A stretch of 64,000 nucleotides of DNA from Lytechinus pictus (lineage: Eukaryota): the NCBI RefSeq assembly GCF_037042905.1, contig NC_087245.1:13766001-13830000 (forward strand), in the 5' to 3' direction. Under the pieces are notes generated by a model that saw only the letters and a list, made by a program, of their open reading frames with translations, was not told the DNA's origin and did no database searches. The position numbers and the translations under genes are program-made. Positions 9,782 to 61,176 of this stretch are shown piece after piece. How positions within the stretch are numbered: the first letter of the stretch is position 1; the number at the start of each line of letters is the position of its first letter.

Positions 9782-12700
9782 TTACATCTCCATGTGTGGC
9801 AAAATAAGGGTGGCAATGTTTGGCTTATTTTCTCTTTTTCTATGGGGAAAATGCTTGATTTCTTGACACTGACAGTTTCCATTACATCTATATGTAATTA
9901 TCATATAACATATCCTAAGTAAATTTGATTCTCTAAATTATTTTTTCTTAATTAAAAATAGAGATTGAAAAATGAAAATTTTCTTGCCATATACATCTCC
10001 ACCAACAGAGGGCGTACACAAAAAAAACATGCCCAAAATTCAAGTTTTTGAGTGCTCTGGTGAATACAAAAATTATTCCCAAGTTAATATTGAAAATTAA
10101 ATTGCAACTGTATGGAAATTAGTAATTTTGGTGATTTTTTAAAGTGTGTGCTATGTACAGCATTGGCATACCGTACCATAGTCTAAGTCATACCTGTAGG
10201 TCTCGCGCGCGTAAAGCATTCCCCATAGACTTGTGTGTTAAAATGGCACTTAAGAAAAATTCATAAAAAATGAATGTGAAATTAGAGGGTCGAATGTTTA
10301 CTACCTTTGGATAGGATATATATCTGACAACAATCCATATCTGACCAGAGAAGGGTATCGTAGCCAGCTCATTTTAAAAATAAATCGCCATTTATAAGAT
10401 AAATATGATGGGATCAAATTCATCAACTGAAACAGTAAAATAGCCCCAATTCTTCCGCCAGTCAAAAAATAGTTCCAAATCGTTGATATATCTTTCCAAT
10501 TTGGGCAAAGGAAGTTCAGTAGTTACCATTTCTAGAATCAGTGTTAGATTTTGAATCATATTCATGCACTTTTGTCAATCAGCAATATCAAATTTAAAAA
10601 ATTCGAATGGGTTGGGTCGAACGAATATCTGTAGCCCTCCTGATGTAATTAGGCTCATGGCATCTATATTATATGACCTATAAATTTTATTTTCTTAAAT
10701 AGCTACTTTGCTATTCTTTTATATCTGTACACTCACACTAGCACAAAGAAATGCATTGAAAATGCCTATTTTCTATGCAATGACCCATTTTAATGTGTTA
10801 CTCATACATGTTATATTCACTATATGGATGATATCCTACCTGCATATAGCCCAATGAGTGAATGCAATGACAATATACATAGGCCCCTATTCTCCTTGTA
10901 ATATAAAGGTGTATGTATATTTTGTGTAGATATCAGGATACCAGAACTGCCCCAAACATAATTACCAGATATACATGAAATTGAATGAGGAAACAATAAA
11001 AGAATGAGAACATATTACTTTAGTACATTTGCACTTGACCTATTATATCAAAATCTTCCTAGGGCTATTGCCTATCAGATGTAAGAAGGAAGAGATACAT
11101 AAATAGATAGAAAGAGAGAGAGAGAAAGAAAGAAAGATAATTTTATAGATGGCATGGCTTATAAAGAGGGGGGGGGGGGGGCGGGCTAGACTAAGATTTG
11201 AGCACACAGCCACCCCCCCTCCCTCCTTAGTTGAGCACTATTAGATACCTTACCTTACTCTGTGCCTTTTTCTAAATACCTTCTTGAAGGTACCACTCTA
11301 GTTCTCTTCAGTAAAGTTCACAAAGTTCTATTTCCTCTCTACCCCATTCCAAAGAACAATTTCAACATGAGCAATTTGTTAAGGTCTTTCTAACATTAAG
11401 GAGGTGATCATACACTAGCACATACCAATGATGAATCAAAACATAAAGAGGCCTAGACTCTCATTGACCAGTCTATATGCATTCCTAGGCTTACATACAC
11501 ATACCTACTAACTTTACCTGATATATAGCCTTGCTAAGCCATTAAATCCATTTTTGGCACCACTTGATGACTAAACATATTGATATCAGTTAGAAATTGT
11601 TTGCTACTGAGGAGTTTGGGCAGGTATTCCATCCACTATAGGGAACTCGCCTGTATTACCTATAGGTCTCACGCGCGTAAAACATTCCCCATAGACTTGT
11701 GTGTTAAAATGGCACTTAAGAAAAATTCATAAAAAATAAATGTGAAATTAGAGGGTCGAATGTTTACTACCTTTGGATAGGATATATATCTGACATTCCA
11801 TATCTGACCAGAGAAGGGTATCGTAGCCAGCTCATTTTAAAAATAAATCGCCATTTATGAAGATAAATATGATGGGATCAAATTCATCAACTGAAACAGT
11901 AAAATAGCCCCAATTCTTCCGCCAGTCAAAAAATAGTTCCAAATCATTGATATATCTTTCCAATTTGGGCAAAGGAAGTTCAATAGTTACCATTTCTAGA
12001 ATCAGTGTTAGATTTTGAATCATATTCATGCACTTTTGTCAATCAGCAATATCAAATTTAAAAAATTCGAATGGGTTGGGTCGAAAGAATATCTGTAGCC
12101 CTCCTGATGTAATTAGGCTCATGGCACCTGTAGATTCCCCCATAGGCAGGATGGTTGCGGTGAGCCAGTGACTTAACCCAGGGAGCTCCTGGCCGGAGCC
12201 CAGGAGTCAACCGTGCAAATCGAGAGAGACACGGGACTGGGGTAGATTGGGGTCTCAATATTAGTAATCTTAATAAAATGTGGTAACAGAAATTATGCAC
12301 TTACCACGATTATATGGTTGAAGGTCTATCGTGACACACAAATCCTGACATCGAGGCACAGACTGGAACCTCAAAAAAACAAAATATAGCCTCACTGATC
12401 GGCCATTTTGACTTTTGTTTCGAATTTTGAAAGAAGCCAGGAGAGGTATCGCGACAGAATTCATTTTTTTTAGGAAAGAGCATGGCTAGTAGTAGTATTT
12501 GAAGAGAACAAATTAAGATTAAAGATGGATGTAACGATATCAAATTTGGGTGAATCCAATAGGCAATATGTGCTAAAGACAAAGCCAGTAAGAAAAAAAT
12601 TGCTTAGATATGAGTGAAAAAAACAAACACAGAATTCCATCAAATGTCAGGCATGTCTAGGTCTACATGTATTTTTTTCCAAAGCAATATTACACTGTTA

Positions 12701-13556
12701 CACACGCTTTTCTGTGTTTGTGATCAGTTTTGTCAGTTTTCAGCTAATATTTTATGATTTAACAAAGATAAGTTTTATATTAGGCCTAATATATACCAGA
12801 TCTAGGTATAGTCTATAGAGTGACAATTAACCTTGATTTTAAAGACTCTCAATAAATAATTGTCTGATACAACTACATTTTTTTACCTTTAAGGCAGTAC
12901 AAAGGTTGAAAATAATAATAAATGAATAAGGCCAGGGTAAAATTAAATGAAAACAGTTGCGCTTGTAGACCATACAGTACATGTATGTGTGCCATCATGA
13001 ATATTGATGAGGTAGGCTGATGCACTCATTCAATGAACAAGGTATATCATGATATAACCTTGTTTTCTGCTAAATACATTGTACTACTCCATTACATATG
13101 TCCATGTGTGGCAAAACAAGGTTGGCAATGTTTGGCTTATTTTCTCCAATGAAAATAAGCCAAAAATTTCTTTGGGACAAATGCTTGATTTCTTGACACT
13201 GTCAGTTTCCATTACATCTACATGTATTCATCATTGATATCCTAAGTAAATTTGACTCTTTTAATTATTTTTTCTAAATTAAAAACAGAGATTGAAAAGT
13301 GACAATTTTCTTGCTATATTTCTTTTCACCAATAGAGGGCGTATGCAAAATTATTCCCAAAATTCGAATTTTTGAGTGCTCTGGTGAATACAAAAATTAT
13401 TCCCAAAATACTAATGAAAATAAATTGCAACTGTATGGAAATTGGTATTTTGGGTCACAAAAGTGATATTTTAATGATTTTTAAAAGTGTGTGCTGTGTA
13501 CTGCATTGGCATAGTCCTACATGTACCTGTAGATTCCCCACAGGCAGGATGGTTGC
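9782..13556. repeat. Outer pair of ~420-440-bp diverged direct repeats (9782-10199 and 13092-13532)
   Basis: catgtgtggcaaaa..ggcaatgtttggcttattttctc ... gcattggcata..tacctgtag is present in both copies. Confidence 0.85.
10200..12125. repeat. Two ~460-bp near-identical direct repeats (10200-10661 and 11666-12125) around a ~1-kb spacer
   Basis: The two copies align along their full length; the block is flanked by ACCTGTAG on both sides (10192-10199 and 12126-12133). Confidence 0.9.
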
Positions 13557-13989
13557 AATGAGCAAGTGGGCTGATGATGTCATGTTCCCACTTTCCTCTT
13601 AGAATACATGAAGTCATAGATATTTCACAATTGTGTATCATATATCTCCTTAAATTAAGTTGCAGCAATGACTAAATTAGTCTTTTTTTTTTCATTGGAG
13701 AAAATTGAATAATATAGGTTTCAGAAAATACAAAATAAATTGGGATATGACATCATCAGCTTGCTCATGGCATGTTGCAATCATGCATAAAAATGAAAGC
13801 CAAATAATGCAAACCTTTAAAACGTCATAACTAATTGTTTAGCAGTTATTCCTTCTCTGATTTAGATTAAGTTTTTATTGTTTGTTAGTGGTGCGGCCTA
13901 ACGCACCATAATTGATATGGAAGTAAACTCCCTATTTCATTCAAATCATCTTGATCAAAGGCTTGTGTTGGCCCAATGTGACTGATTAA

Positions 13990-17615: not shown

Positions 17616-18574
17616 TTCAACTTAAAATCATTTAAAGTTACATGAACAGTTTAGTCTGGACATTTTTTCAGTATATTACCTATAAAGGCTTAAAAGTACA
17701 CCAATGGTATTTTTCTTCTCTTTGTTTGTTCCTATCCATATGATATTACCATATATGTATGATATGATAATTTATAACTTGATATATTTGATAAGTTCAT
17801 GTGTATGGTTTTGATCGAGCGAAGCGAGCGAGCCAAAAATATCCATATTATATTATGGTATGGAAGAAGTTTTTTAATGTTTTTTTTTAGGGCACATACT
17901 TGTAATGAACTCCATGACAAAATGACTGTTAATAGGTTTCCATTTCCTAGCTGTCAAATGTAACCCTATTTGGTACTTCGCTGTTTATACTTACCAAACC
18001 TAACTTGTCTTTTTACAAGCAAGTGAAGAAAATAACATGAACTTTTTTTTTATTTTAGTGGTAAAGATAATGATATTTTTTGTATACATATGTAGTACAT
18101 ATCAAGTTATCTAATATCTCTAACTCTCTATGCACTTCAAAAAGGACTTTGGATATTTTTACAATGGCTTTTTTTAATAAGGGCATTTAAAGGAAAGGGA
18201 AGGTGGTGCTCACTTTTTGATGGCATCCAAAGCCAGTAGAATAGGGCACCAATGGTGAAATGTACTTTCAGAGCTACAAATTAGTAGGGTTGTATCCTAT
18301 TAGTAGGATATTTTAAGGGAGAAAGTGACACTTATAGGATTTCCCCCCTAGAAATATGATTTTTTTTTTTGTACTTGTGATTATTTTCATATGTATTAAA
18401 AAAAAAATTCAAGAAGAAAAAAAAAAAAGAATAGACCTATATTTTTTTTTTTCATAATTAAAGTTGGCAAGTCTGTACTTTTAATGTGACACATGCACTT
18501 GATCACTGCAGGCAGGACACCTTGGCAAATTTTGTTTTCCTTCTTTCATTGAATATTTGTTTGTGGGAACTTAA

Positions 18575-19162
18575 AGGTCAAGTCCACCCCAGGAAACAGT
18601 TGATTTGAATAAATAGAGAAAAATCAAACACAAATAATGCTGAAAACTTCATAAAAATCGGATGTAAAATAAGAAAATTATAACATTTTAAAGTTTCGCT
18701 TATTTTTCATAAAACAGTTCTATGCTCAACTCAGTGATATGCAAATGAGAAGAGTCGATGATGTCACTCACTATTTTGTTTTTTATTGTTTGAATTCTAC
18801 AATATTTCAATTTTTACGATTTTGACAATTAGGACCTCCTTGCCTGAACCACAAATGTTAAAAAAATGGAATTCCATGTGTTCAGGGAGGAATGAAACTT
18901 CGTTTCATATGACAATGACGAGAAAATCAAAATATTTCATATAATAAAATACAAAAGAAATAGTTAGTGGGTGATGTCATCGGTCCCCTCATTTGCATAC
19001 CGAACAGGATGTGCATATAACTGTTTTGTGAAATTAAGCGAAACTTAAAAATGTCATAACTTTGTTATTTTATATCCGATTTTGATGAAATTTTCCGTGT
19101 TGTGCTTGTTGGATTTTTCTCCTTTTATTCAAATCAACTAGTTGTTGGAGTGGACTTGTCCT
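18575..19162. mobile_element. MITE with long imperfect TIRs, TTAA-AGG...CCT termini (Kolobok-like)
   Basis: TTAA|AGGTCAAGTCCACCCC ... GGAGTGGACTTGTCCT; arms such as aaaatcggatgtaaaataag / ttattttatatccgatttt are inverted copies. Confidence 0.8.
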
Positions 19163-21804
19163 TAAAAGCATCTTGATGTATACACATGAATGTATATAGT
19201 TTACTGATACCACTGTGACTTCTTTAGGCTAGAAAATTTCAATTTGAGGGGCTATTGTTAATATTGGGTTGATTTCTTTCTTTTTTTGTAGGGGGGGGTA
19301 GTTCTTTTCATTTCAAGGGCTACATGTTTCATTTGATAAAGCGCAAAATAATAAGTACTGGATGAAGATAAAGTGGAAATTATTCCATCTGGACATTAGA
19401 CTAAATGTGGTATTATACTATTAGATCAAGTGTAGTGTCAACCAAATGATAATTCAACCAAAGTAAAGTGGGTTTAGCTCATAATACTACAATTATTTGG
19501 AAACCCTTGCTACGAACTATTGTACATTCACTCGTATGTATTTTATTATCTCGAGTGCAAAGTGCAAACATGTACACTTCTCTGATAAGTGCCCTCTTAA
19601 CACTGTAAAACTGATTGTCACCAAATTCATACTGATGGAATCAATGCAATTAGTCTTTAAAGCTAATATATGATCGAAATATTGTAAAGTTTTTATCAAA
19701 TTGATTAGACGTAAATGTCCAAGGCTGTACTTCATGAAGAGTTTACATTTACTATGGTGTTCAACTGCTTTCAAATGGAATCTAGCATGCAAATAGTTCA
19801 GTTTATTTCATGGTTTTTGTTTTAAATAATGAATTTTTTGTGAATTCTGTTTATAATATTAAATGATGTGCAAATACTTGCTGAAGATTTAGAATAAATT
19901 ACAATTTGATCAGAAACATTGAGTTGAAAATTGGTGGTCCCTGTTTTATGGGCATGTCAGATTGTATTTAGAAAGGGAAAGAAATAGATAAAGGAAATGT
20001 AAGAAATGAAAAATCTCATCGTATCATTTGTCTATGATTGTATAATTTTGTTATCCAATGAAAGTTTCATTTTAATTCTTTTTAATAACTATATTCAAAT
20101 TTATTCATAAGTGTTTTCCCTATATAATAAGGGTACATGTTTAGCTTCCTTTGAGACAGGCTCTATGTACAATGCAATTAAAAAAAAAATACATAAACCT
20201 CCAAATTTTCAAACCTAGCTGACATCTAAGAATAGAGAGGAGATGCTAGGGTTCATGCTTTTGCCATTTTCTCTCTCTATCTCTTGGTTCGGAGGCAATG
20301 ATCCTCCCCCCCCCCCATGGCCCTGGGAGGCGGGGGTTGTGTAAAAATTGAAAAATGTAACAAAATGACCCTCATTTTGTGGTGAAACCCTTTTTTTTTT
20401 TTTTTTTTTTCTTTTCAAATTTACATCAGCACCCATATTAAAAAAAGTTGTTCCCAGTGCCCAGCCTGTAAAGGTTTTTTTTGCTGTTTTTGTTCTTTCT
20501 CTTAAATAATTTTCTTCACTTATACTACCCTTTCCCTTCTTGATCTATATTTGTATGGTTGGGGATAAGAGGGCCTTTTGGACAACTTGGCATGAAAAAA
20601 ATGCTATTTTGTTTTTGTTTTTTTTTGCTGGAAGGAGGTAACTGCTTGTAATGCCAGGCCCCTTCAGTTATTTTCTTCCCTTTCTCTTATTTTCCATCTG
20701 GGTTTTTGCTCTCTTACTCTTTTTTTTTTGGGGGGGGGGGATGGGATGGGCCCTGGGCCGCCTTTTTTTTAATTATAGATTTATCCCTTTTTTGGCAGGG
20801 GAAGTAATGTAATGTCCTTGTAGCCACATTCGTCCCAACTACCCCCACCCCTTTGTTTCTTTATTTCTTAGTAATCATCCCTCTTTTTAGGTGGGGGGTG
20901 CAGGACCCTCTCACCTCCATAAATCTTTATCCATATCTGATTTTAGAAGACCTTTACCTACAACCTTGTATAGGCCTTTTTTATGGCTCTATACATATAT
21001 AAAGTTCCAGGGACAGACATGCTTGGTGGTCGATTGGTGAAAAAAAAAAATCATCCATTTTTTCTCTCTGTGTGAGGGATTTAAAAAATGTTAGTTTAGG
21101 GGAGGGGGGGGGGGGGGGTTCAGTGGCATAATGGTTCTAAAAATGTTAGGGGGCCAGAAAATGGCGTAGAGGGCAAAAAAATATAAAAAGCTGCAGGTGA
21201 GCGAAATGAGCAAGGAAAGATTTTTGATACCGCCGAAAATCTATTTTACATGATGATTTGAAATATAATATTCAACCCTGCTTCTTTTCGCTGGGCGGGG
21301 GGTAGAACTCGAGACCGAAGTTTTAAGTATATTATGTTATCTTTATTTTTATACAATAATAGGTACTACGTATACACGTATACTAGATCGATAATGTGAG
21401 CGTGAGCTAAATTTTTTGATAAAAAATGAACTGCGATTGAGTTATCTTGAGAAATCTTGTGGTTTTCAGGATTATTTCCCCATTCTACATTTTTTTAAAA
21501 TTTCAATTCTCATTCAGTTGATTTGTATAATACTTCTTTACCTTTTTCACCATAACCGGGATGAAGAATATTCACAAAAATTAAGTGACATTCAAAAGGG
21601 TGGTAAATTAAACGGGGGCATACCCTATGCTCTTGGTTGCGGGGAGGGGACAAATTAAAAAGATGACATGAACGTAATTATAATTATCTTTCATCCTGTA
21701 TTTTTTTTCTCTCCATCTGTTTCTTATAAGTCTGAAAGGAATGGTTTCATTCAATAACAATAAACATAAGAAAATTCCGAGAAAAAAAAAAGGTCATCAT
21801 GCGT

Positions 21805-33594: not shown

Positions 33595-34812
33595 CAGGCC
33601 TCTACAAAAAAAAATTTGTCACTTGCCCTGTCGGGCAAGTGATGAAAAAATTTGCTTGCCTGATAGAAAAAACTGCTTGCCCAATTTGTTTCATAATTTT
33701 ATTATGACAGCACATACTCTTATTTTTAAAGGTCATACAAAATAACAATAATTGAGAATCATGTATAGTATAAAAGAACACACATTTAAAAGTTTACGTT
33801 TATTTTGAAAAAACTTTTCGCTATTTATAAATGGGCGTTTAAGAAAAAAAAAAAACCTTCACCAAAAGTTGCTAAAATTTCACATTTTGCATCTTTAAAT
33901 CCACGAAATGGTTATCTGTTTGCCAAATTTCCTTAGAATTGTTTCGATTTAGTTGGAAGCTATAAATAAAGCCAGTGAAAAATATTCAGCTCTTTATTGA
34001 CTCTGAAAAAGATCGTTTTATGATGTAAAAAAAAAAAAAAAAAAAAAAAAGTGGAGTGACTAAAATTTCACATTTTGCATCTTTAAATCCATGAAATGGT
34101 CATTTATTTTTCATATTTCCTTGAATTTTTTAAAAATTTGTTGGAAACTATCAATAAAATTAAGAATATTCACCACTCTCTTTGTCTTTTCTTCATCATT
34201 TTATGATGTTACGCTCGGTCAATTTTTTTTATATTGTAGTCCCACATGTAGACTTTCATGTTCTTTTTCATGGTGTTGCAACAATAACAGAATACGATCG
34301 ACCGAGTGTAATCAGAGTCAAGAAAGAGCTGAATATTCTTCATTTTTTCAGTAGTTTCCAACTAAATCAAAACAATTTCAAGGTAATATGGAAAATAGAT
34401 GGCCATTTCATGGATTTTTGCAAAATGTGAAATTTTAGCCACTTTTTTTTTTTTTTTTTTTTTGGGGGGGGTTTGCATCAGCAAATTGCGCAAGATGGTA
34501 GCGCATGCGCAGTCATTGCACACATAGAACGTAAGATGCGATGGCACGGTTTTTCGAACGAGGTACCTGGCGATAAATTATTGGTAATTGGCGCTGATTT
34601 TACATCAGTTTCCACTATTTTTTTTACTGGTTTGACATAATGTGAGAGATAGTTACTTGTGATTATCCAAAAGATAGTGAAATTTAGATGGTCTACTGAT
34701 ATTTTATTATTTTATTTCCAAAACAACCACTTGCCCGATCAGGCAATTGACTTTGAGAAATGCTTGCACATTATTTTCACTTGCCCCGGGCAAGCGGGTT
34801 TGTCACGCCCTG
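33595..34812. mobile_element. hAT-like non-autonomous element with a 7-bp TSD
   Basis: CAGGCCTCTACA ... TGTCACGCCCTG; flanks AAGATAG on both sides; subterminal CTTGCCC/GGGCAAG motifs at both ends. Confidence 0.8.
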
Positions 34813-37026: not shown

Positions 37027-37785
37027 TTTTTGTCTCACCTGCGAAGCAGAGTGAGACTATAGGCGCCGCTTTTCCGACGGCCGCGGCGTCAACACCAAAT
37101 GTCAAACACCAAATTTGAAATGACAGCATAACTTAGAAAGTATATAGACCTAGTTAATGAAACTTGGCCATAAGGTTAATCACGTATTACTGAACATCCT
37201 GCCTGAGTTTTGGGTCACATGACCAAGGTCAAAGGTCATTTAGGGTCAATGAACTTAGACCATGTTTGGGGAATCAACATCAAAATCTTAACCTAAGGTT
37301 AAGTTTTTGAAATGTCATCCTAACTTAGAAAGTATATGGACCTAGTTCATGAAACTTGGCCATAAGGTTATTCGAGTATTACTTAACATCCTGCCTTAGT
37401 TTCAAGTCACAAGACCAAGGTCAAAGGTCATTTAGGGTCAATGAACTTTGGCCAAGTTGGGGGTATCTGTTGAATCACCATCATAACTTTAAAAGTTTAT
37501 GGATCTGATTCATGAAACTTGTATAAGAGTAATCAAGTATCATTGAACATCCTGTGCGAGTTTCAGGTCACATGACCAAAGTCAAAGGTCATTTAAGGTC
37601 ATTGAACTTTGGCCATTTTGGAGGTAATTATTAGATTGCTATCATAACTTTCAAAGTTTATAGATGTAGTTTATAAAATGTGGATATAGGGGTAATCAAG
37701 TATCACTGACAAGTCTTAGGTTGCATGATCAAGGTCAAATGTCATTTATTGTCAATGAACGTAGTAGTACTTTGTATCATTATAT
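37027..37785 (+). mobile_element. Element with four tandem 150-190-bp core repeats (Helentron-associated / Tsp-pearl-like architecture)
   Basis: Head ttttgtctcacc..gtgagact.. followed by repeats containing GGTCAAAGGTCA or variants at ~37227, 37419, 37580 and 37733. Family assignment is from recollection of the architecture. Confidence 0.6.
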
Positions 37786-38368
37786 TCTGATCCAAGTAGT
37801 TCTTGAATGATACTTATTGCAAATTCCTTTCATGTTTTCATATATTATTCATATTGAAATATTCATATTCACTTGTGTTCACATCATTGTACTTCATGAA
37901 TAATACATAAAAGTAAAAGTTACAGTTGGTATGTGCTTACAGTAGTAAATCATGCAATAATGATAAAAGAAATAAAAAGAAACTAAAATGCAGTATATTA
38001 TTAAAGGACATTATAAGTAGTTTTGTTTCAATCATCTGTCTTGTGTATTCAAATGTCCATTTGGAAGCTTTTTATAAAATTTTCTTTCAATGGATGGAGG
38101 GGAGGGGTATGAATTAAAATTTTTGTATTTTGCTATCAATTAGTGAAAACAAGAAGAATTGCAATGAAATTATTAATGGAACCTGATTTTGATTACAGAT
38201 TAGTGTTTGATTTTCTTGTGCATGAAAAGGATCCCATAACTTTTCTAAAGATATTGAATGCATTTCTCCTCTTTGCCTCCCTTTGTACTATTCATAAGTG
38301 CTTATCTTTATACCTGCTTTCATACTCTGATGTTAAATTTTTGAAATCAATTGTAATGTTTTGCACAG

Positions 38369-38497
38369 AGAGGCGCTGAAGTCCATCTTGTACCATGGGA
38401 CTATGACTATAATCAGATTGAATATGACGGTCTCTTCATATCTAATGGTCCTGGAGATCCTGCCCTTGCCACTGCTGCTATAGACAACCTCAAACAG
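38369..38497 (+). CDS. CPS1: CPS coding exon 6 (followed by a GC donor)
   Basis: RGAEVHLVPWDYDYNQIEYDGLFISNGPGDPALATAAIDNLKQ; donor CAG|gcaagt. Confidence 0.9.
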
Positions 38498-39160
38498 GCA
38501 AGTATCAAAGGCCCTGTTTTAATGAAAATAGCCTTTGATAGTAAGTTTTTAGCTACTGCTGTTGTGGACAACCTCAAAAGGTAATGATAAAGGCCCTGTT
38601 TTGCTGAGAATTGATGTTGATGGTAAGTCATTAGCTAATGCTGTGCTAGAGAACCTCAAACATGTAAGTATTGAAGGCCCCATTTAAGTGAAAGTAGCCA
38701 TTGGTGGTAAGTTTTTAGCTACTGCTGTTGTGGACAACCTCAAAAGGTAATGATAAAGGCCCTGTTTTCATGAAAATTGATATTGATGGTAAGTTATTAG
38801 CTAATGCTGTGCTAGAGAACCTCAAACATGTAAGTATTGAAGGCCCCATTTAAGTGAAAGTAGCCATTGGTGGTAAGTTTTTAGCTACTGCTGTTGTGGA
38901 CAACCTCAAAAGGTAATGATAAAGGCACTGTTTTCATGAAAATTGATATTGATAGTAAGTTATTAGCTAATGCTGTGCTAGAGAACCTCAAACATGTAAG
39001 TATTGAAGGCCCCATTTAAGTGAAAGTAGCCATTGGTGGTAAGTTTTTAGCTACTGCTGTTGTGGACAACCTCAAAAGGTAATGATAAAGGCCCTGTTTT
39101 CATGAGAATTGATGTTGATGTAAGTTATTAACTAATGCTATGATAAACAACCTGAAACAT
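38470..39160 (+). repeat. 83-bp tandem repeat (166-bp A/B dimer) derived from the exon 6 end and its donor
   Basis: CAACCTCAAAAG|GTAATG ends at 38580, 38746, 38912 and 39078, alternating with GAACCTCAAACAT|GTAAGT units; the first unit overlaps the real exon end at 38497. Confidence 0.95.
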
Positions 39161-39553
39161 TTATTATATACCAAAGGCCTTCATGTAAGTTACTATCCAT
39201 GGTAAGTTGTAACTTTCTGTAATAATGTGATTTTAGTGAGTAAGTGAGAGTGCAAATATATACAAGCCAGCAAATCAAATATATGAAAGAAAAAATAAAG
39301 AGAAAGTCATTTCATGCTTGTGAAAAATGTTTTATAGTCTTGCTTTACAATGATCCTGGATTGCATTTTTACTTTGAGCAGTTTAAGTTTGTCATATTTA
39401 ATTATTTTTGTATTGTCTTGTATTGATTGTATGTTTGGTAGTCTTGTATTGCAGCATCTACTGAACATGTCACATTTTGATATAGTAGTGATTATGATTT
39501 ACATTACGCTTGCAATAAAAGTGTTATTGTTTTTGCTGTGTTTTATCTCATAG

Positions 39554-39660
39554 GTATTGGCTCAGGAGAATCCTAACCCCTTGTTTGGTATCTGTATGGG
39601 CAATCAGTTGACTGGCTTAGCAGCAGGTGCCCCATCCTACAAATTGCCTCTTGGTAACAG
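39554..39660 (+). CDS. CPS1: CPS coding exon 7 (glutaminase nucleophile Cys)
   Basis: VLAQENPNPLFGICMGNQLTGLAAGAPSYKLPLGNR; Cys codon TGT at 39593-39595. Confidence 0.95.
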
Positions 39661-40110
39661 GTGTGATTACAATCATTCTATTAGCTACAAATATTTTGCA
39701 TTGGTTTATTTATTGCAATTTATTTTTCTCAACTAGCAAGGAAATGTCACTTCTCGACATTTATGCATGTACAAATATATGAAAAATCAGCAAAAACATG
39801 AAAATATGGTCTCCTAAATTTCACATGTTGGAGCAAAGTCAGAAATTATTAGTCTTTAGAGATATGTTGTACATGTACTTTTGTTAGGGTTTCATTTTCA
39901 ATGATAATTGTAGTGGAGAATCAAATTAATTTTTGTTACCACACAATGTTCTCATTAGCATTCTTTGGCCAAAATGTTAGAATACTTTGTTATAAGTACT
40001 GTTGAATTATACTAATTGATGACTTTATCCACTTTTTTTTGTGTGTGTGATTTTCATTATTTTGCCACTTCTGTAATGAAAGGAAACAAAATGAATACTT
40101 TGTTACACAG

Positions 40111-40252
40111 GGGTCACAACCAACCAGTTATCAATGTGTTGAGTGGTCAGGCATTTATTACATCTCAGAACCATGGCTTTGCTATAGACGGTGACAAATT
40201 ACCCCCAGAATGGACACCAGTCTTCATCAATGCCAATGATAATACTAATGAG
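40111..40252 (+). CDS. CPS1: CPS coding exon 8
   Basis: [24 protein letters not shown]...NANDNTNE. Confidence 0.95.
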
Positions 40253-41193
40253 GTAAGAAAATCAGCCACCCTTGAAAATGGCCTAGTATCTGTTAATAAA
40301 AACCCCTTTTTATTGGGCGGCATTGTTAAATGAAGTATTGGTGTAAAAGATCAGTTGATGAAGAGTTGAAATTTTATTTAAAAAAATGCAATCTAATTAT
40401 TTTGTTGTTATGGACTTTTCACTACAATTCACTATATTTGAGCCAAAAGAAATAAAAATCATACAAATAAATCACATATCATCTAAACTGCTCACAGCTT
40501 TAATTAAATTTTTTTACAAAGTAGTGCAGATATGCAACAATAATTATGATACATCCAATGTGCAACATATTCAGCTTTGTACACATTTTTACAAAGCACT
40601 GGCGTTGTTATTAATAGGTTTGGTAGTACTTTTGCCATAAGATACTCCACACAAGCCTTCCAGGGAATTTCTTCATACAAAGTACCCATTACCAGTGTAG
40701 AGCTACATTCCAAGTGTGTGTCAATATGTAATACTCTACAGATATTTATTTTTATGGGGGGGGGGGGGTAAGGTGTCTAGTAATGACTGCTTGTATGCAG
40801 GGGCGAATCCAGGATTTTCCAAAGGGGGGGGGCACATTTTCCAGAGGAAAATTTTGACAAGCAAAAAAAAAAGTTTTCCAAAAAAAATAAGGCCATTTCG
40901 TCCACAAAAACATTTGACAAGCAAAAAAAAGGGTCTTCACTTTTAAAAGGGGGGGGGGGGCACACTACTGTTTTAACAGCATTTTTACATTACAAATGTT
41001 AATTGTGCCTCTCAAAAGGGGGGGGGGGGGCACAGGCCGGCTTTGCTCCCCCCTGGATTCATCAGTGCTTGTATGCATTTTTTTTGGGGGGGACACGCTA
41101 TTCGCATTTGACAAAGAGTGTAATGATATAGCACTAATTCCTACATTGCTTCAGAATGAATGATATGAGTGACTTTGCATGTGTTATTTTCAG

Positions 41194-41861: not shown

Positions 41862-42089
41862 GGACCGTATTTTCAAAAGAGGTTTCAATTGTACCATGAT
41901 ACAACACATTGGACTAAGCAGATTTATTTCATTAACGCGCTTCATTTTAAGAGCTCTTTGCCGAAAGCGCACATTTAATTGGATTTAACTTTGTGTACGC
42001 TAAGAAATAAGCGTAAGTATGTGAAAAATCTGCATAGACCATGGTTTTGTACCATGGTACAATTGAAACCTCTTTTGAGAAAATGGGCC
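41862..42089. mobile_element. MITE with ~40-bp TIRs
   Basis: GGACCGTATTTTCAAAAGAGGTTTCAATTGTACCATG / CATGGTACAATTGAAACCTCTTTTGAGAAATGGGCC. Confidence 0.8.
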
Positions 42090-42808: not shown

Positions 42809-43045
42809 GAAGAGAATGTTAAGACTATCTTGATGAATCCAAACATAGCCTCGGTTCAGACCAATGAGTATGGTGAGAAGCAGGCCGACAGTGTCTACTT
42901 CGTACCCATCACACCAGAATTTGTCACCGATGTCATCAAGCGGGAGAAACCTGATGGGATCCTGCTTTCCATGGGAGGCCAGACTGCTCTCAACTGTGGG
43001 GTGGAGCTGTATAAAAGAGGGATCCTGCAGGAGCATGGAGTACAG
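42809..43045 (+). CDS. CPS1: CPS coding exon 11
   Basis: [19 protein letters not shown]...[24 protein letters not shown]. Confidence 0.95.
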
Positions 43046-43604
43046 GTGAGATAGGGCTCCATATAAGAGCGAGGGAAGTAAATGTGGAAACAGATTCAGG
43101 TGTAAATGTTGGTTCCTGCCTTTAATTTGAGGTAGAACATCTCAACTGTGGGCGGGAGCTCTATAAACAGTGATCCGAAAGGAACATGGAGTAAAGGGGA
43201 GATGTAATCCATGCTAACTGGGAGAAAAGAAGATAGTGGGATGAAATTCAGGTGGGAGGGTTGGATCCACCTTTTTACTGGAGGCCACATTACCCTGTGC
43301 TTTATAGCTCTATAACACAGGGATCCTTTTGTGATCTTGCAGGAGCATGGAGTACAGGTGGAGTTTGGGATCCATGTTTCAATATGAGACAAAGGAATGA
43401 TTTATCTGTATTTTCCCCCTTGTTTGGATTAAGGTTTTCTATTGGAAAATACATTAAATTGCTCTCATCAGTCAGGCTAGGTACAGAGATCCTTCAGCTG
43501 ACTACATTCTTTCCCAGCGTATAAAGGACCTTTTCTTGCCTCACCTAACAGTCTAAATGCACAGATATCAAATTATGCTTTGTATTTAACTTCATTAATG
43601 GCAG

Positions 43605-53360: not shown

Positions 53361-53868
53361 GTAAGACGCAATTGAAGAAGCATTCAAATGAATGAGAACA
53401 AAATATTTTCAGTTGGATATTACGAGGTCTGTGAAACATGCTAAAGTTGAACCTATTTTCCTAATATTTATAGTTGTGAATCTCAAAAGAACTTGCTTAG
53501 TTGTAATTATGGTGAAAAGTAGATTTCATATCTTTAATCATTAAGAATTATGGATGGTTTTATTAACATGTCATTCAAGATATATAATTGACTTTTATTA
53601 AATGTGAAGTCCAGTTTCGGTAAGATCTCAAATCCTATATATATATATATGCAATATCTAGTTTAAGTTAGCAAGTAGCATGTGAAGGTTTTCCACGTCA
53701 AGTTGAGGCAAATGAGAGGGGATACTGCAAATTTCTACAATTTATTCGTGGACAACAAATTAAAATCTTGATTATGCATATAAAACCAAAGAGAGATCTT
53801 CTCCCCTCATAACACACACAAATCACTATGATTTCATACACATACAGCCCAGGGGTCAATTTCCTTAG

Positions 53869-54457
53869 AGGGATGGTCCGGGCTGAAAATATTTGTATCT
53901 AAATAAATAGAGAAAAACTTCACAGAGCAAAATGCTGAAAATTTCATCAAAATAGGATAACAAATAACAAAGTTATTGAATTTTAAATTTTATTAATATT
54001 TTGTGAAAACAGTTATATGCATGTAGTCATGAATATTCATTAGGTGGGCTGATGATGTCACATCCCCACTTTCCTTTTTCTTATGTTATTACATTAAATC
54101 ATAAATGTTTCATTTTTTCATACATGCGTAAATGACGTGTCTCCATTATGATGAAATAAGTTGCGGCAGTAAATAACTAATGTACTCACTCAGTTGTCAA
54201 TCCAATTGTTATAGTTCTTGGTAGAAAAATTTTGAATAAACCTAATTTCATATAATAAAATACAAAAGAAAAAGTGGGGATATGAAATCATCAGCACACC
54301 TAATGAATATTCATAAAGACATGCCTAGACCTGTTTCACCGGAATAATGAAAATATTCAAATTTAATAACTTGATTTTGATCAAATTTTCAGCATTTTGC
54401 TTTGTGAATTTTACTCTATTTATTGAGATATAAATATCTCCAACCTGGACCATCCCT
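53869..54457. mobile_element. MITE with long imperfect TIRs, related to the 22613 element
   Basis: ttag|AGGGATGGTCCGGGCTG ... CAACCTGGACCATCCCT|TTAA. Confidence 0.8.
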
Positions 54458-54561
54458 TTAACCGGGGTCAATACGGCTATTAGAAATTGGTGATATGACA
54501 TTTGCTCCTGCGACAATTGCTCCGGGCTTAATTTCATCTAAGATGTAGGGTTAGGGTTAGG

Positions 54562-56668
54562 TAATGTTGTAAATCGGATCAAAAATCAGATCGAAAATCG
54601 GATCGGCAGTTAAGCTTCTAAAATCGAAATCGAATCGAAAATCGAATCGGCGATGTTTAAAAACAAAGGAATACATCAACATTTTGTTCGCGGTCGCGCG
54701 CATCTTCCTGACAAAGTCACAAAGACGAATGTTTAGGAATGGAAGTACAGGTACCGGTAGTCGACATGCGCGTTCGTTTGGAACATGCTTTTAAAGGGTT
54801 TTGAGGTTTAACTGCTTAACAATAAAATGAGTGATTTTTATTAGAAAGATAAACGAATGACGCATCTTCCGAGCAGTCGCAAAGGAAAATAATTCTCGTA
54901 GATCACAGGTCAATGAACGATCGGCGGGACATCTTTTATAAGTATTTTTATGTGAAGCTGAGCTCAGCTAAGTTCGCTCATTATAATATGTGATTACAGC
55001 CACGCCCAATAACCATTCCAAAGTACACCCATTTTGTTATAATAGCTTACTTGGTACATCATTTCTCCGAATCAGTTCTGGGAAAAGTTAAGTCACGCCT
55101 CAGTATCGATCTTTTTGTATACCCACCCACTCAACAATATCAGTGAATTACGCAATGCGCGCAAGCATTCACACAATACAAGATAGTTTTGTGGCATAGC
55201 CGAGAACTGGAACCGCCCAGACTCAACGGGCTAGCGCAAAATTCTTTACACTACCTTTTGGCATGTGCACGTGGTGGGTTTGATTGACACTGCTAACAGT
55301 GCTATTCTTTGAGTTGGCTCACTGGCTGGATTAATGACAATATATCACTGCAAGTATGGCTTACATGATACATACAACACGCAACACATCCATACACACT
55401 GCTCTCAAACTCCCTTGCTATTATTCGTACCTAGGCCGTGTGTGCACTTATGGGCGGGATTTAAGCAGGGCATTGACTAGCATATACAACACATCCATGC
55501 ACCCAGCATTCATATACATTTCTCAAACTCCCTTGCTATTCGTCCATTGTGTGAACTCATGGGCGGGATTATGACAAAAATTAGCGCAAGCACTAGCATA
55601 CGTAACACACACAATACATTCCTGCACCCACGCGGTCACACATAGCTCTCAAACTCCCTTGTCATTCGTCCATTGTATTCACTCATGGGCGGGATTTATC
55701 AGCGTAAGCACTAAGCATACATAATGCGTACAACACATTCATGCAGTCACACACAGCTCTCAAACTCCCTTGCTATTGGTCCATTGTATTCACTTATGGG
55801 CGGGATTTATCAGCATAAGCACTAGCATACATAATGCATACAACACATTCATGCACCCATGCAGTCACATACAGCTCTCAAACTCCATTGCTATTGGCCA
55901 TTGTGTGCACTCATGGGCGGGATTATGACAAAAATTAGCGCAAGCACTAGCATACGTAATACACACAATACATTCCTACACCCACGCGGTCACACATAGC
56001 TCTCAAACTCCCTTGTCATTCGTCCATTGTATTCACTCATGGGCGGGATTTATCAGCGTAAGCACTAGCATACATAATGCGTACAACACATTCATGCAGT
56101 CACACACAGCTTTCAAACTCCCTTGCTATTGGTCCATTGTATTCACTTATGGGCGGGATTTATCAGCATAAGCACTAGCATACATAATGCATACAACACA
56201 TTCATGCACCCATGCAGTCACATACAGCTCTCAAACTCCATTGCTATTGGCCATTGTGTGCACTCATGGGCGGGATAAATGACAAACACAGTACAAGTAC
56301 ATGTTCATTGTTTGTATATTATACAATACATTCATTCCAAGTTGAAGTTACACTCCCGCCATACCAGTCAGCGCAGCTACCGGTAGGTCATCATAAGTAG
56401 GTCAACCTTTTATGAGTCATTTCTGACATTCTAGGAATCTCGATTGTTCGAACTATTCGATTGTTAAAAAGCTCTAAATAGCTAGCACCTCTGCAAGAAC
56501 AATCTTGAAATATGTTCTGACCGCACTGTAACTAGATCTACAGGTATGCCGATTTTTTATATCCGATTTTTTCCTTCAAGGGGCATGATCGAAGATCGGC
56601 AAGTGATCGCCGATTGTTGTGAAATCGAATGGAATCGGTTGCCGATTGCAAAATCGGTTACAAGCTTA
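54562..56668. mobile_element. hAT-like non-autonomous element with an 8-bp TSD, carrying a satellite array
   Basis: GGGTTAGG|TAATGTTGTAAATCG ... CGGTTACAAGCTTA|GGGTTAGG; clustered AATCG/CGATT motifs near both ends. Confidence 0.8.
55365..56290. repeat. ~110-126-bp tandem repeat, 8 units, with a ~354-bp three-monomer higher-order period
   Basis: GGGCGGGAT anchors at ~55452, 55561, 55687, 55798, 55915, 56041, 56151 and 56268. Confidence 0.92.
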
Positions 56669-58024: not shown

Positions 58025-58247
58025 GTAAGTGATCATCTGGGGAAATGCAGCATTTAATTCTTTATCAAACAAATAATGTATCAGGGGGCATTGGGGAGGG
58101 AAGATGCAAGGTAGATAAATCAGGGAATAATTTTTATTGTCAAATTTGATTAGTTGCTTTGTGGGATAGAGTAAAGATTTGGAATTAGATTTTTTTTTTA
58201 TAAATCTTGTGTTAAAATCTTCCATACATAAAAAACAAACATTTTAT

Positions 58248-59982
58248 TAGGAGTGGGCTATAAATGGGTGATATTTAGTTTTACTGTGGCAACAGTTTTT
58301 TTGTATTCCTTTTACCTTATCTCAACATGAAATAACAATGTTTTTTGTCTCGGGTCCGAGAAAAAAGTGTGCCGGGCCAAAATCCAAAATGGCCGCCAAA
58401 ACCCCCCAAAATCACAGTTTTGGCCACAACTTCTTTATTTGGTGGTCTTTTTCTCTGGTTTTGGTGTCTATTCATCTGTTTTTGGGGGCTAGGCAATTTG
58501 TTTTTCCTAAAATTAGTACTTATAAACCATTATTTGTAGAGTTAAAAGGTGACTTTACTTAAATTTACAACTTTTTAGACCCTTTTTCAGCCAAAAAATT
58601 AGGTTTCATTGTCTCATGGTTCTTGGATATTAGATGACACCAGTTGAGAAGTAGTAAGCAGCTTCTTATAGCTATATTGCTTTTATTCTTCTAAATGGTG
58701 TTTTACAGATATTTGCGAAATATATCTTATCAAATAAAAAGATGTCATCTATCCATACGGGCTATATACAGTGTAGTACAATGTATTGTACATACTACAC
58801 TGCATATATCCATGCATTGAGCCATTGACCACCATGACATACATGTATAACAAGTCCTGTATATAAACTATAGTGTCATAGAAGTGAGCTCCTGAGGATT
58901 AGAATTAGATTGTCACTTGTGAATTTGATTGCTTGTTAGCTGATGTACATACTGTACATGATGTAACCTGATGATAAACATAAATTGCACATAAACATCA
59001 TGTACATGTACATCACATTTCTAGCCATATCTTCTTCATTTGGAGGCTTGTTTTTACCTGGTTGTGGTGTCTAACCCTATGTTTATGGGGTCAGGTACAA
59101 TGGTAACGCTGATCAACAGCCAATCAGAATCAAGTATTCCATGCAAGTTACCATTGAATGGCAAAGTTACCTTAATGGTAACAGAATAGCCACAGTGTAA
59201 ATGCCAGAATGTGTGGTTGACTATAATCCATCGTTAATGATATTTCCTCTCTCCGCCCCCTGCATGAGCATATATGACAAAACATGTCTTCAATTTCTGG
59301 GGCAAAACATACAGCATCTTCAATTTCTGAGGCATTTAATTCAAGAGCTCATTTCTATGACACTATAGTTTATCCTACAGACGATGGTCAATGCAAGGAC
59401 ATACATGTATGCAGTGCAGTATGTACAATACATTGTACATTAACTATATATACATAGTAGCCCCTATGGATAAATGACGTTTTTTCATTTAATAAGATAT
59501 ATTTCGCAAATATCCGTAAAACACAAAGTAGAGGAATAAGAGCAATATAGCTATATGAAACTACTTGCTATTGTTGAATTCGTATTGTCCAATACCCAAG
59601 AACCACAAGACGATGAAACCCAATTTTTGGCTGAAAAAGGGTCTAAAAATCTGTATATTTAGGTAAAATCACCTTTTAACTCGACAAATAATGTTTTTTA
59701 GTACAAATTTTAGGTAAAACAAATTGCCTACCCCTAAAAACATATGAATAGACACCAAAACCAGAGAAAAAGACCAAAAAATAAAGAAGTTGTGGCCAAA
59801 ACTGTGATTTTGGGGGGTTTGGGCGGCCATTTTGGATTTTAGCCCGGCACACTTTTTTCTCGGACCCGAGACAAAAAATATTGTCATTTCATGTTGAGAT
59901 ACATTACAAGGAATAAATAAAAACTGTTGCCATATTAAAATTACAAAAAAAGTATTTTTGACCCATGTATAGCCCACTCCTA
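58248..59982. mobile_element. Fold-back element with ~650-bp inverted arms and a 7-bp flanking duplication
   Basis: ATTTTAT|TAGGAGTGGGCTATA ... TATAGCCCACTCCTA|ATTTTAT; arms ~58248-58900 and ~59337-59982. Confidence 0.85.
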
Positions 59983-60295
59983 ATTTTATGTTGCAATCAT
60001 TTTTGAAATGCAAAGGAAATATTTCATAAAACTCTACAAAATTTCCACATTTTTAATATAACATTTAACTCTATAGTTAAACAGATCAAGATAAACATGA
60101 CATGGATAGGAATCATATCCATCATTCTGTAAATTTGTTCTGCAGTTCTCACATTTTGTTGATAAAGAAATGATGGGTAACATCAGCTCAAGAGAAGTAT
60201 TTTTAAAGATTTTCTTTATGGCTTTGTCAGAAAGTTTTGAATCTCACTTGTGCCGAAGATATTGTCATATTAGTTTATTTGTAATCATGTTATAG

Positions 60296-60455: not shown

Positions 60456-60617
60456 GGGGGCTGTTTCATAAAAATGTTTGCAAGTTGAGAGCGACTTTTA
60501 GAACGACTGGTGATCCTTTCTTACGCGCTGAACTATCGCCAATTAATATACCATTAACCACAAGAAAGGACCACCAGTTGGTCGCTCTTAACTTTCGAAC
60601 AGCTTTATGAAACACCC
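60456..60617. mobile_element. Short MITE
   Basis: gggggctgtttcataaaa..gagagcgac / gtcgctctt..ctttatgaaacaccc. Confidence 0.6.
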
Positions 60618-60839
60618 ACCAAATGTACAAATATTTAGTTTTACTGATGATTTATTATCTATAAAATACTTACTGCATTGTATATCAGATATGTTAACTG
60701 TCAAAGCCCTCATAAAAATGATTATTATGAATTCAAATTTTTAAATTGAAATTCCTGAATGAGAAAAGATATCTGAAATGAAATGCAAAAGTAAGAAATT
60801 GATTATTTTCTCTTCATTTTGTATTTCTTTTATTTACAG

Positions 60840-60988: not shown

Positions 60989-61176
60989 ATCGCTGATGTG
61001 GTTTATGGTACACCATGTGGAGTGTTATAGAAACAGTGGATAGAAGAAGAGAAGGACTACTTTCAAGAAAGAATACTCTACTCTCAAATCTCCACTTTCT
61101 CGCCTATCCATTTCTTCTCTTCTATCCAATGTTTCTATAACACTCCACATGGTGTACCGTAAACCACATCAGCGAT
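60989..61176. mobile_element. Near-perfect hairpin MITE (~60-bp arms)
   Basis: ATCGCTGATGTGGTTTATGGTACACCATGTGGAGTGTTATAGAAAC / GTTTCTATAACACTCCACATGGTGTACCGTAAACCACATCAGCGAT. Confidence 0.8.

What the first reader, a model, noticed from the sequence alone, without database searches (positions are those of the whole stretch)
38470..39160. GC-donor intron followed by a tandem array of copies of its own exon end and splice donor
Seen: exon 6 must use CAG|GCAAGT. The nearest GT donors (38541 and 38581) are out of phase with exon 7, and read-through stops just after 38580. The last ~28 nt of the exon plus ~55 nt of intron were amplified into ~8 further 83-bp units (A/B dimer of 166 bp). Most copies carry a canonical GT donor (AAG|GTAATG or CAT|GTAAGT), a second GTAAGT, and a TTAG just upstream, so they look like 28-29-nt frame-shifting micro-exons. 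Inference: a weak true donor competes with many stronger decoys. This could act as a copy-number-variable splicing/NMD rheostat for CPS, or be an intermediate of intron gain by tandem duplication.
Basis: partly seen in the sequence, partly recalled or inferred. Interest (0 to 1): 0.7.

Follow-up and report, generated by a model that had tools for sequence, protein, structure and literature searches.

The report
Urchin GC donor outruns GT copies
In a sea-urchin nitrogen-metabolism gene (CPS1-like), the end of one exon and its rare GC splice signal are copied eight times into the next intron, yet every spliced RNA seen uses the first signal, so this is likely a tolerated example of a repeat type already known from human, lancelet and chicken genes.

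Summary
Observation confirmed, interpretation mostly not. Intron 6 (38498-39553) of a sea-urchin CPS1-like gene is GC-AG. Homologue alignment, 3 raw RNA reads and contigs of 3 of 3 assembled runs join 38497 to 39554. No junction from a copy was listed, but depth is too low to exclude minor use. The array (38470-39213) is the true unit, seven A/B units and one decayed unit. It is real: a 166-base loop occurs in two other samples, and a related species has the dimer and the GC donor. The copies are not simply stronger. The GC site matches U1 at 10 of 11 bases; the in-register GT copies score near the bottom of this gene's donors; six secondary GT sites are of typical strength. The micro-exon acceptors score below all 27 real ones, and the intron position likely matches mammals, so intron gain is unsupported. 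Closest known: F7, CBS, LMNB2 and PDGF boundary minisatellites, amphioxus 'mirages', chicken exon stuttering. The scan noted this kind before on other DNA, including seven loci of this genome. The one twist: a GC donor that likely arose after the duplication still wins over downstream GT sites.

The parts
38369..38497 (+). Exon 6 (sixth coding exon of my model) of a CPS1-like carbamoyl-phosphate synthetase gene, 129 bases, phase 0 at both ends
   Evidence: tblastn with P0001 and P0002; gene model; RNA reads enter from exon 5 letters and leave to exon 7 letters
38495..38505 (+). Functional GC donor CAG|GCAAGTAT (cut after 38497)
   Evidence: 3 X18 reads; contigs of X1, X2, X5; 10 of 11 U1 matches; no other letter at 38499 in two allele-like contigs of organism B
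38498..39553 (+). Intron 6, GC-AG, 1056 bases; the only GC intron of 27 modelled
38470..38552 (+). Unit 0, the source unit: last 28 exon bases + first 55 intron bases; holds a weak second site ATA|GTAAGT at 38541
38553..39131 (+). Seven copies in A/B alternation (A1 38553, B1 38635, A2 38719, B2 38801, A3 38885, B3 38967, A4 39051); 166-base dimer; in-register GT sites at 38581, 38664, 38747, 38830, 38913, 38996, 39079; second GTAAGT sites at 38623, 38707, 38789, 38873, 38955, 39039, 39120
   Evidence: 196-base loop contig (back 166) in X1 and X2
39132..39213 (+). Decayed B-like edge unit (56-62% to the others); in-register GT lost; GTAAGT sites at 39185 and 39202
38582..38584 (+). In-frame TAA that ends read-through from exon 6
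39554..39660 (+). Exon 7, with a strong acceptor

Best explanation
This is a minisatellite seeded at an exon-intron boundary, in which the first donor (GC) is the one used in every spliced RNA seen, and the GT-bearing copies are likely silent, near-neutral pseudo-donors. Shown: the structure, the GC-AG junction, and the array and GC donor in a related species. Inferred steps: (1) An 83-base stretch (28 exon + 55 intron bases) was duplicated in tandem, diverged into A and B types, and the A/B pair was then amplified and homogenised (B copies identical, edge unit decayed), by slippage or unequal exchange as in other minisatellites. (2) The intron is old; the exon is the source of the repeat, because its protein is identical to the Strongylocentrotus homologue while the copies have drifted. 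(3) The donor was probably GT when copied, since all 8 copies have T at +2 and U0 is closer to A and to B than they are to each other; it became GC before the split from organism B, tolerated because the other ten bases match U1. (4) The true site likely wins because it is the first usable donor after the exon-6 acceptor (exon definition / oriented scanning as shown for human F7), the next two GT sites are weak, and the first typical-strength GT site would need a 254-base exon. (5) Any leak would carry a premature stop and would likely be removed by NMD.
For: Junction 38497 to 39554: 3 X18 reads, agreement 1; one contig each in X1, X2, X5 (depth 11.6, 5.5, 12.2), with no second loose end or joint at the exon-7 acceptor although B3, A4 and the decayed unit were in the stretch. 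X20: 8 reads on exon 6, no depth beyond 38501. Donor and acceptor scores. Organism B: two contigs branching at 38488 (depth 31.3 and 29.1) carry the exon end with no other letter at 38499 and run on into array-like letters; a 538-base contig returns 107 bases with 60 letters between (about 167) and shares five B-type bases (38520A, 38522G, 38528G, 38534A, 38540G). The site at 38541 appears not to be kept in organism B: one contig has G at 38540 (stronger site), the other's loose end lacks the GT. A second, independent exon-end duplication lies at intron 11. [quoted passage not shown]
Against: Only 3 raw junction reads: the 95% upper bound on decoy share from them alone is 0.63. Contigs drop rare paths (PMC12424806). 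Six secondary sites (ATG| or GTG|GTAAGT) score at or above the gene's median donor, against 0.19 expected per 716 bases, and they have GT. In human CBS and 6-16 the nearest pseudo-sites are used (PMC1557585 Introduction), and F7 sites with a perfect consensus did draw splicing. X1 and X2 hold the array loop at depth 27.7 and 7.6 and unspliced intron 7, but nothing at 39129-39542, so RNA enters the array in those samples and its exit is not seen. One X18 read runs unspliced through the donor to about 38552. The scanning model was shown in mammalian cells, not in urchins.
Confidence: 0.76

Rival explanations
1. The GC donor splices slowly and the array takes a real share of transcripts (retention, exon extension to a secondary GT site, or ending inside the intron), lowering CPS output as an unselected side effect that may vary with tissue or allele.
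For: X1 and X2 graphs branch right after the shared G at the donor (exon 6-7 contig begins 30 letters before the branch, as k=31 predicts), hold the loop at 5.0 and about 3 times intron-7 depth, and lack the 3' half of intron 6. Their word share of 0.41 fits exons + unit 0 + loop (0.386). An AATAAA and an A-rich run lie at 39283-39306. CBS and 6-16 use near pseudo-sites.
Against: No decoy joint or loose end listed; X5 shows only the spliced form. Contig depth is no copy number or expression measure and holes prove nothing (tool text). Low-depth AT-rich branches (GC 0.29) can be pruned in assembly, priming on the A-rich run could give the same picture, and intron 7 is unspliced in the same samples, which points to ordinary precursor RNA.
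Confidence: 0.14
2. A selected, copy-number-tuned splicing/NMD rheostat for CPS.
For: All 17 GT sites give a premature stop if used. Array and GC donor persist in two species. GC donors are enriched at alternative splicing events (PMC2490688).
Against: No decoy junction seen. The sites are not conserved: organism B's A-like unit reads TAA|GTAATA and the 38541 site differs between its two contigs. A second duplication of the kind sits at intron 11, which suggests a mutational habit, not a device. Copy number was not measured.
Confidence: 0.05
3. An intermediate of intron gain: array units become micro-exons or a copy replaces the exon end (the model drawn for amphioxus mirages).
For: Each unit has TTAG, 28-29 exon-like bases and a GT; A+B together (57 bases) would be in frame without a stop. 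The model is in print (PMC3087553 section 16).
Against: All 7 acceptors score below 27 of 27 real ones; donor-to-acceptor gaps are 54-55 bases; A or B alone shifts the frame; the insert would add 19 residues 14 codons upstream of the conserved Cys where 13 of 13 homologues shown have no insert; no such join in RNA. The classic mechanism needs an exonic AGGT duplication (PMC3443670).
Confidence: 0.03
4. Assembly artefact or sequencing error (false array or false GC).
For: No long read spanning the array was seen, so the exact copy number rests on the window alone.
Against: Units are diverged, with A variants and a decayed edge; the 166 loop is in X1 and X2; a diverged dimer and the GC are in organism B.
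Confidence: 0.02

Closest known systems
Human F7 intron 7 37-bp VNTR, with LMNB2 (100 bp, 10-15 copies), PDGF intron 4 (81 bp, 16-18), CBS intron 13 (15-20) and 6-16 (25 pseudo-sites). PMC1557585: abstract, Introduction, Results part 1 of 3 and Discussion read. CBS VNTR named c.1444_1467+7(16_21) in passages of PMC2630376.
   Same: First monomer spans the exon-donor boundary; the donor recurs in the intron; the most upstream site is the one seen used; unit size close to PDGF's.
   Different: Here the true donor is GC and the copies are diverged GT sites, not identical ones; each unit has a second GT site; there is a two-unit higher-order repeat; length polymorphism is not shown; sea urchin, not mammal.
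Amphioxus 'mirages' (Adh3, globins BflGb6 and BflGb9). PMC3087553: abstract and section 16 read.
   Same: Minisatellite-like tandem copies of an exon-intron boundary, homogenised middle and diverged edge units, normal splicing, invertebrate deuterostome.
   Different: No GC donor is mentioned in the section read; haplotype length differences are shown there and not here.
Exon stuttering in chicken. PMC12954441: 12 passages read.
   Same: The lateral part of an exon with its splice site is copied through the adjacent intron; more than one intron of a gene can be hit (here introns 6 and 11).
   Different: Described mainly for GC-rich dot chromosomes with large length variation; this window is 31-42% GC.
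GC-AG U2 introns. PMC2490688: part 1 of 2 read; PMC3167603: abstract read.
   Same: Near-perfect consensus around the GC; GT>GC conversion is the commoner direction (298 vs 40 in mammals); a GC site can beat an intact GT site (BTK, over 90%).
   Different: Those papers do not concern tandem copies of the donor; enhancer compensation was not tested here.

Membership tests
Exon-boundary minisatellite (F7-type / mirage / exon stuttering) | First unit spans a real exon-intron boundary | tested here: met
   U0 38470-38552 holds the RNA-confirmed cut after 38497
Exon-boundary minisatellite (F7-type / mirage / exon stuttering) | Head-to-tail copies in the adjacent intron repeat the donor | tested here: met
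   8 copies, 7 with an in-register GT
Exon-boundary minisatellite (F7-type / mirage / exon stuttering) | Upstream site is the one mainly used | tested here: met
   3 of 3 listed raw junction reads and 3 of 3 assembled runs; exclusivity not shown
Exon-boundary minisatellite (F7-type / mirage / exon stuttering) | Copy number varies between alleles (VNTR) | tested here: inconclusive
   Loop-to-intron-7 depth 5.0 in X1 and about 3 in X2, but contig depth is not copy number
Exon-boundary minisatellite (F7-type / mirage / exon stuttering) | Pseudo-sites are functional and the next one is activated when the first is lost | not testable with these tools
   Needs a minigene, as in PMC1557585
GC-AG U2-type intron | Spliced ends are GC and AG | tested here: met
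   the one-base shift that the shared G allows gives non-canonical ends
GC-AG U2-type intron | Rest of the donor close to U1 consensus | tested here: met
   10 of 11 matches versus 5-9 for the 26 GT donors (the U1 motif is recalled)
Intron gain by tandem genomic duplication | Duplicated exonic segment with AGGT used as new donor and acceptor | tested here: not met
   Unit is two-thirds intronic; acceptors score below all real ones; no such join in RNA (definition)
Intron gain by tandem genomic duplication | Intron position absent from outgroups | tested here: inconclusive
   No outgroup genome held. Indirect: the last exon codon aligns to residue 280 of mouse P0052 and human c.840G>C is listed as a splice-site variant (PMC9634248, one passage); equal mouse/human numbering is recalled. 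This points to an old intron.
Unproductive splicing / NMD regulation (AS-NMD) | Alternative isoform with premature stop exists, rises under NMD block and is conserved | tested here: inconclusive
   Stops predicted; no isoform listed; sites differ in organism B; NMD block not testable

The most novel reading that the evidence does not exclude
The functional donor changed from GT to GC after its own GT copies already stood behind it, and it still beats 17 downstream GT sites. That makes this locus a natural experiment showing that position after the exon outweighs the GT rule outside mammals. In some tissues the slow GC site lets a sizeable share of CPS transcripts run into the array and be lost, so array length would tune CPS level.
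Probability: 0.12. Interest if true: 0.55.

Novelty: new member of a known kind. Interest (0 to 1): 0.24.

Why it matters
As it stands it is one more exon-boundary minisatellite with normal splicing, of modest interest. Its use is as a test case. In F7 the copies equal the true donor, whereas here the first site is GC and later ones are GT, so a minigene or deep junction count would measure directly how much position outweighs donor strength in an invertebrate. It also warns annotators: a GT-only gene finder would likely misplace this exon end into the array and break the gene.

Tried and rejected
No whole genome is held for this window, so no genome-wide donor matrix, paralogue check or count of such arrays was possible; matrices come from 26 donors and 27 acceptors of this one gene. 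One search listed no holder on record as RNA; this is not used as evidence. X19 gave 0 reads (no test). Of 20 runs listed, 7 were laid; raw runs were read to about 6 in 100. A first reading that organism B's array copy keeps GC was withdrawn: 38499 lies too near that piece's end to be listed and 6 of its 13 differences are unlisted (note). In one search, 4 further pieces of X10 were not shown. U1 duplex energies did not separate the true site (-9.3) from the secondary sites (-9.1). Alternative in-frame rescue of a GT site was rejected: all 17 give stops with exon 7. The greedy model misplaced intron 1, corrected. The spl-TR catalogue (PMC10078293, 12 passages) gave no boundary-spanning example. 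Searches for a GC donor with tandem GT copies (2 papers, neither with 'GC-AG'; 0 notes) and for sea-urchin cases (1 abalone paper, listing only) found none; the library lacks most subscription journals, and no supplements were read.

Full report
Setting. The window holds most of a CPS1-like carbamoyl-phosphate synthetase gene on the + strand. One exon searched against the protein collection gave Strongylocentrotus CPS1 (P0001, 96%) and Diadema (P0002, 92%) as best hits. A 27-intron model gave 1209 residues, 95.2% identical to P0001 and 87.4% to P0002 (intron 1 corrected). The source is therefore a sea urchin close to Strongylocentrotus. No whole genome is held.

Observation. The array is real and far beyond chance. 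TRF finds 8.3 copies at period 82 and 4.1 at period 166 with 94% matches. Aligned, it is a source unit U0 (38470-38552: 28 exon and 55 intron bases), four A units (91-98% alike), three identical B units and a decayed edge unit ending near 39213. Of 54 exon boundaries aligned to their own introns, only the donors of introns 6 and 11 beat all 100 shuffles (scores 50 and 59 against maxima of 28 and 26).

The GC donor is used. P0001 residues 233-278 end at 38497 and 279-314 begin at 39554 with no gap. On 38250-38600, run X18 gave 9 reads, of which 3 leave at the donor into exon-7 letters; one read continues unspliced to about 38552, and one begins in intron 5, so these two look like precursor RNA (inference). 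X20 gave 8 reads, none beyond 38501 and no listed loose end there; X19 gave none. On 38945-40300, contigs of X1, X2 and X5 each join the true exon end to exon 7; no joint or loose end from an array unit is listed, and X18's 5 reads add only the exon 7-8 joint.

Donor strengths. With a matrix from the gene's 26 GT donors, leaving out +1 and +2, the true site scores 8.97, above 26 of 26, and matches the recalled U1 motif at 10 of 11 bases against 5-9 for the others. The A copies (AAG|GTAATG, +5 G lost) score above 2 of 26 and the B copies (CAT|GTAAGT, -1 G lost, though also 10 of 11 U1 matches) above 3 of 26. The nearest GT site, 38541, scores above 2 of 26. Six secondary sites (38623, 38707, 38789, 38873, 39039, 39202) reach the median, where other introns give 0.19 such sites per 716 bases. 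So the intron is rich in usable GT sites, but the first typical one is 125 bases downstream and would make a 254-base exon. All 17 GT sites give a premature stop as exon extensions. The seven TTAG acceptors score below 27 of 27 real acceptors and sit 54-55 bases after the preceding in-register donor, against a shortest real intron of 182. Micro-exons are unlikely, although A+B would be in frame.

History. DNA contigs of a related organism (X10; 10 records laid, 7 shown) include two that branch at 38488 with equal depth, likely alleles. Neither lists another letter at 38499, so both keep GC, and both run on into array-like letters. A 538-base contig loops back about 167 bases and shares five B-type bases with the window; its own donor letters are too near the piece end to be read, and an A-like loose end reads TAA|GTAATA. 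X1 and X2 of the window's own species hold a 196-base loop that goes back 166. Array, dimer and GC donor are thus older than the species split and are no assembly artefact. All 8 copies have T at +2 and U0 is nearer to A and B (73-79%) than they are to each other (65-70%), so the donor was probably GT when copied and became GC later. A single C-to-T change in a first copy is the alternative, and no outgroup genome was available. GT>GC is the commoner direction in mammals (PMC2490688). The last exon codon aligns to mouse residue 280 and human c.840G>C is listed as a splice-site variant (PMC9634248), which suggests the same intron in mammals; the numbering match is recalled.

Results against a clean neutral reading. 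In X1 and X2 the loop has depth 27.7 and 7.6, intron 7 is unspliced at 5.5 and about 2.5, and 39129-39542 is empty. The exon 6-7 contig starts where a branch into the GC intron would cut it, and the word share of 0.41 fits exons plus unit 0 plus loop (0.386). RNA therefore enters the array in these samples and its way out is unseen. Pruning of a thin AT-rich branch, priming at the A-rich run at 39283-39306, or a divergent allele would explain this; so would decoy splicing or early ending. The tool warns that such holes and depths prove nothing, and I leave it open.

Mechanism. Most likely (0.76): a boundary-seeded minisatellite whose copies are silent because the first usable donor after the exon is chosen, helped by a near-perfect context at the GC site and weak nearest competitors; leaks would go to NMD. 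Structure and junction are shown; selection by position, neutrality, NMD and the GT-to-GC order are inferred. Rivals: unselected leak or retention (0.14), selected rheostat (0.05), intron-gain intermediate (0.03), artefact (0.02).

Comparison with what is known. Human F7 intron 7 has a 37-bp repeat whose first unit spans the donor; its pseudo-sites work but do not compete, even at consensus value 91, and only perfect sites draw splicing. LMNB2 and PDGF use only the first site; CBS and 6-16 also use the next two (PMC1557585). Amphioxus mirages show the same layout, edge decay and normal splicing, and were already proposed as a route to intron gain (PMC3087553). Chicken exon stuttering was found in 236 introns of 115 genes (PMC12954441). 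A GC site beating an intact GT site is known from BTK (PMC3167603 abstract). Earlier notes of this scan, unchecked by me, list 64 findings with these words in at least 29 genomes and seven such loci among the eight shown for this genome. They pointed me to the mirage and stuttering papers and one reports splicing from a variant copy, but they are not evidence for my reading. I found no paper or note on a GC donor followed by GT copies, within a library that lacks most subscription journals.

Verdict. Observation confirmed; interpretation partly supported; new member of a known kind with one unusual feature. Interest 0.24. The boldest reading not excluded, that a donor weakened to GC in front of its own GT copies and loses a length-dependent share of transcripts to them, has probability 0.12 and would merit 0.55.

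Noticed in passing
window 42990-43375: Second exon-end duplication in the same gene: the end of exon 11 (donor 43046) recurs at about 43115-43225 (donor at 43197 has lost GT) and 43265-43375 (CAG|GTGGAG at 43358). The second copy has a strong acceptor before 43343 (score 8.9, above 21 of 27 real ones), giving a possible in-frame 15-base micro-exon 43343-43357 that would repeat EHGVQ. A better exon-gain candidate than the array itself; not tested in RNA.
   Followed up: partly
window 39661-40110: Intron 7 is unspliced in contigs of X1 and X2 at depth near the spliced form (5.5 vs 7; 2.4-2.6 vs 3) while the start of intron 8 is uncovered: possibly a slow or detained intron next to the GC intron.
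   Followed up: no
window 39554-39660: Exon 7 keeps Cys in FGICMGNQ where mouse P0052 has Ser. By recalled knowledge this is the glutaminase nucleophile, so the enzyme is likely CPS III-like (glutamine-using), despite the 'ammonia' label of its homologues.
   Followed up: no
window 55297-56286: Intronic minisatellite with nested periods of about 110 and 353 bases, in intron 21 of the gene.
   Followed up: no
window 18571-19166, 34030-34463, 41862-42089, 53865-54461, 60456-60620, 60989-61176: Self-inverted (palindromic) elements, probably MITE-like; 18571-19166 and 53865-54461 are related.
   Followed up: no
window 58238-58895 and 59341-59992: A 680-base inverted duplication (81%) inside intron 23, which could pair in the pre-mRNA.
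   Followed up: no
window 9786-13570: Local direct duplications upstream of the gene, including 479 bases at 97% (10191-10668 vs 11657-12132).
   Followed up: no
window 37114-37760: Diverged tandem repeat of period 161-192 in intron 5.
   Followed up: no
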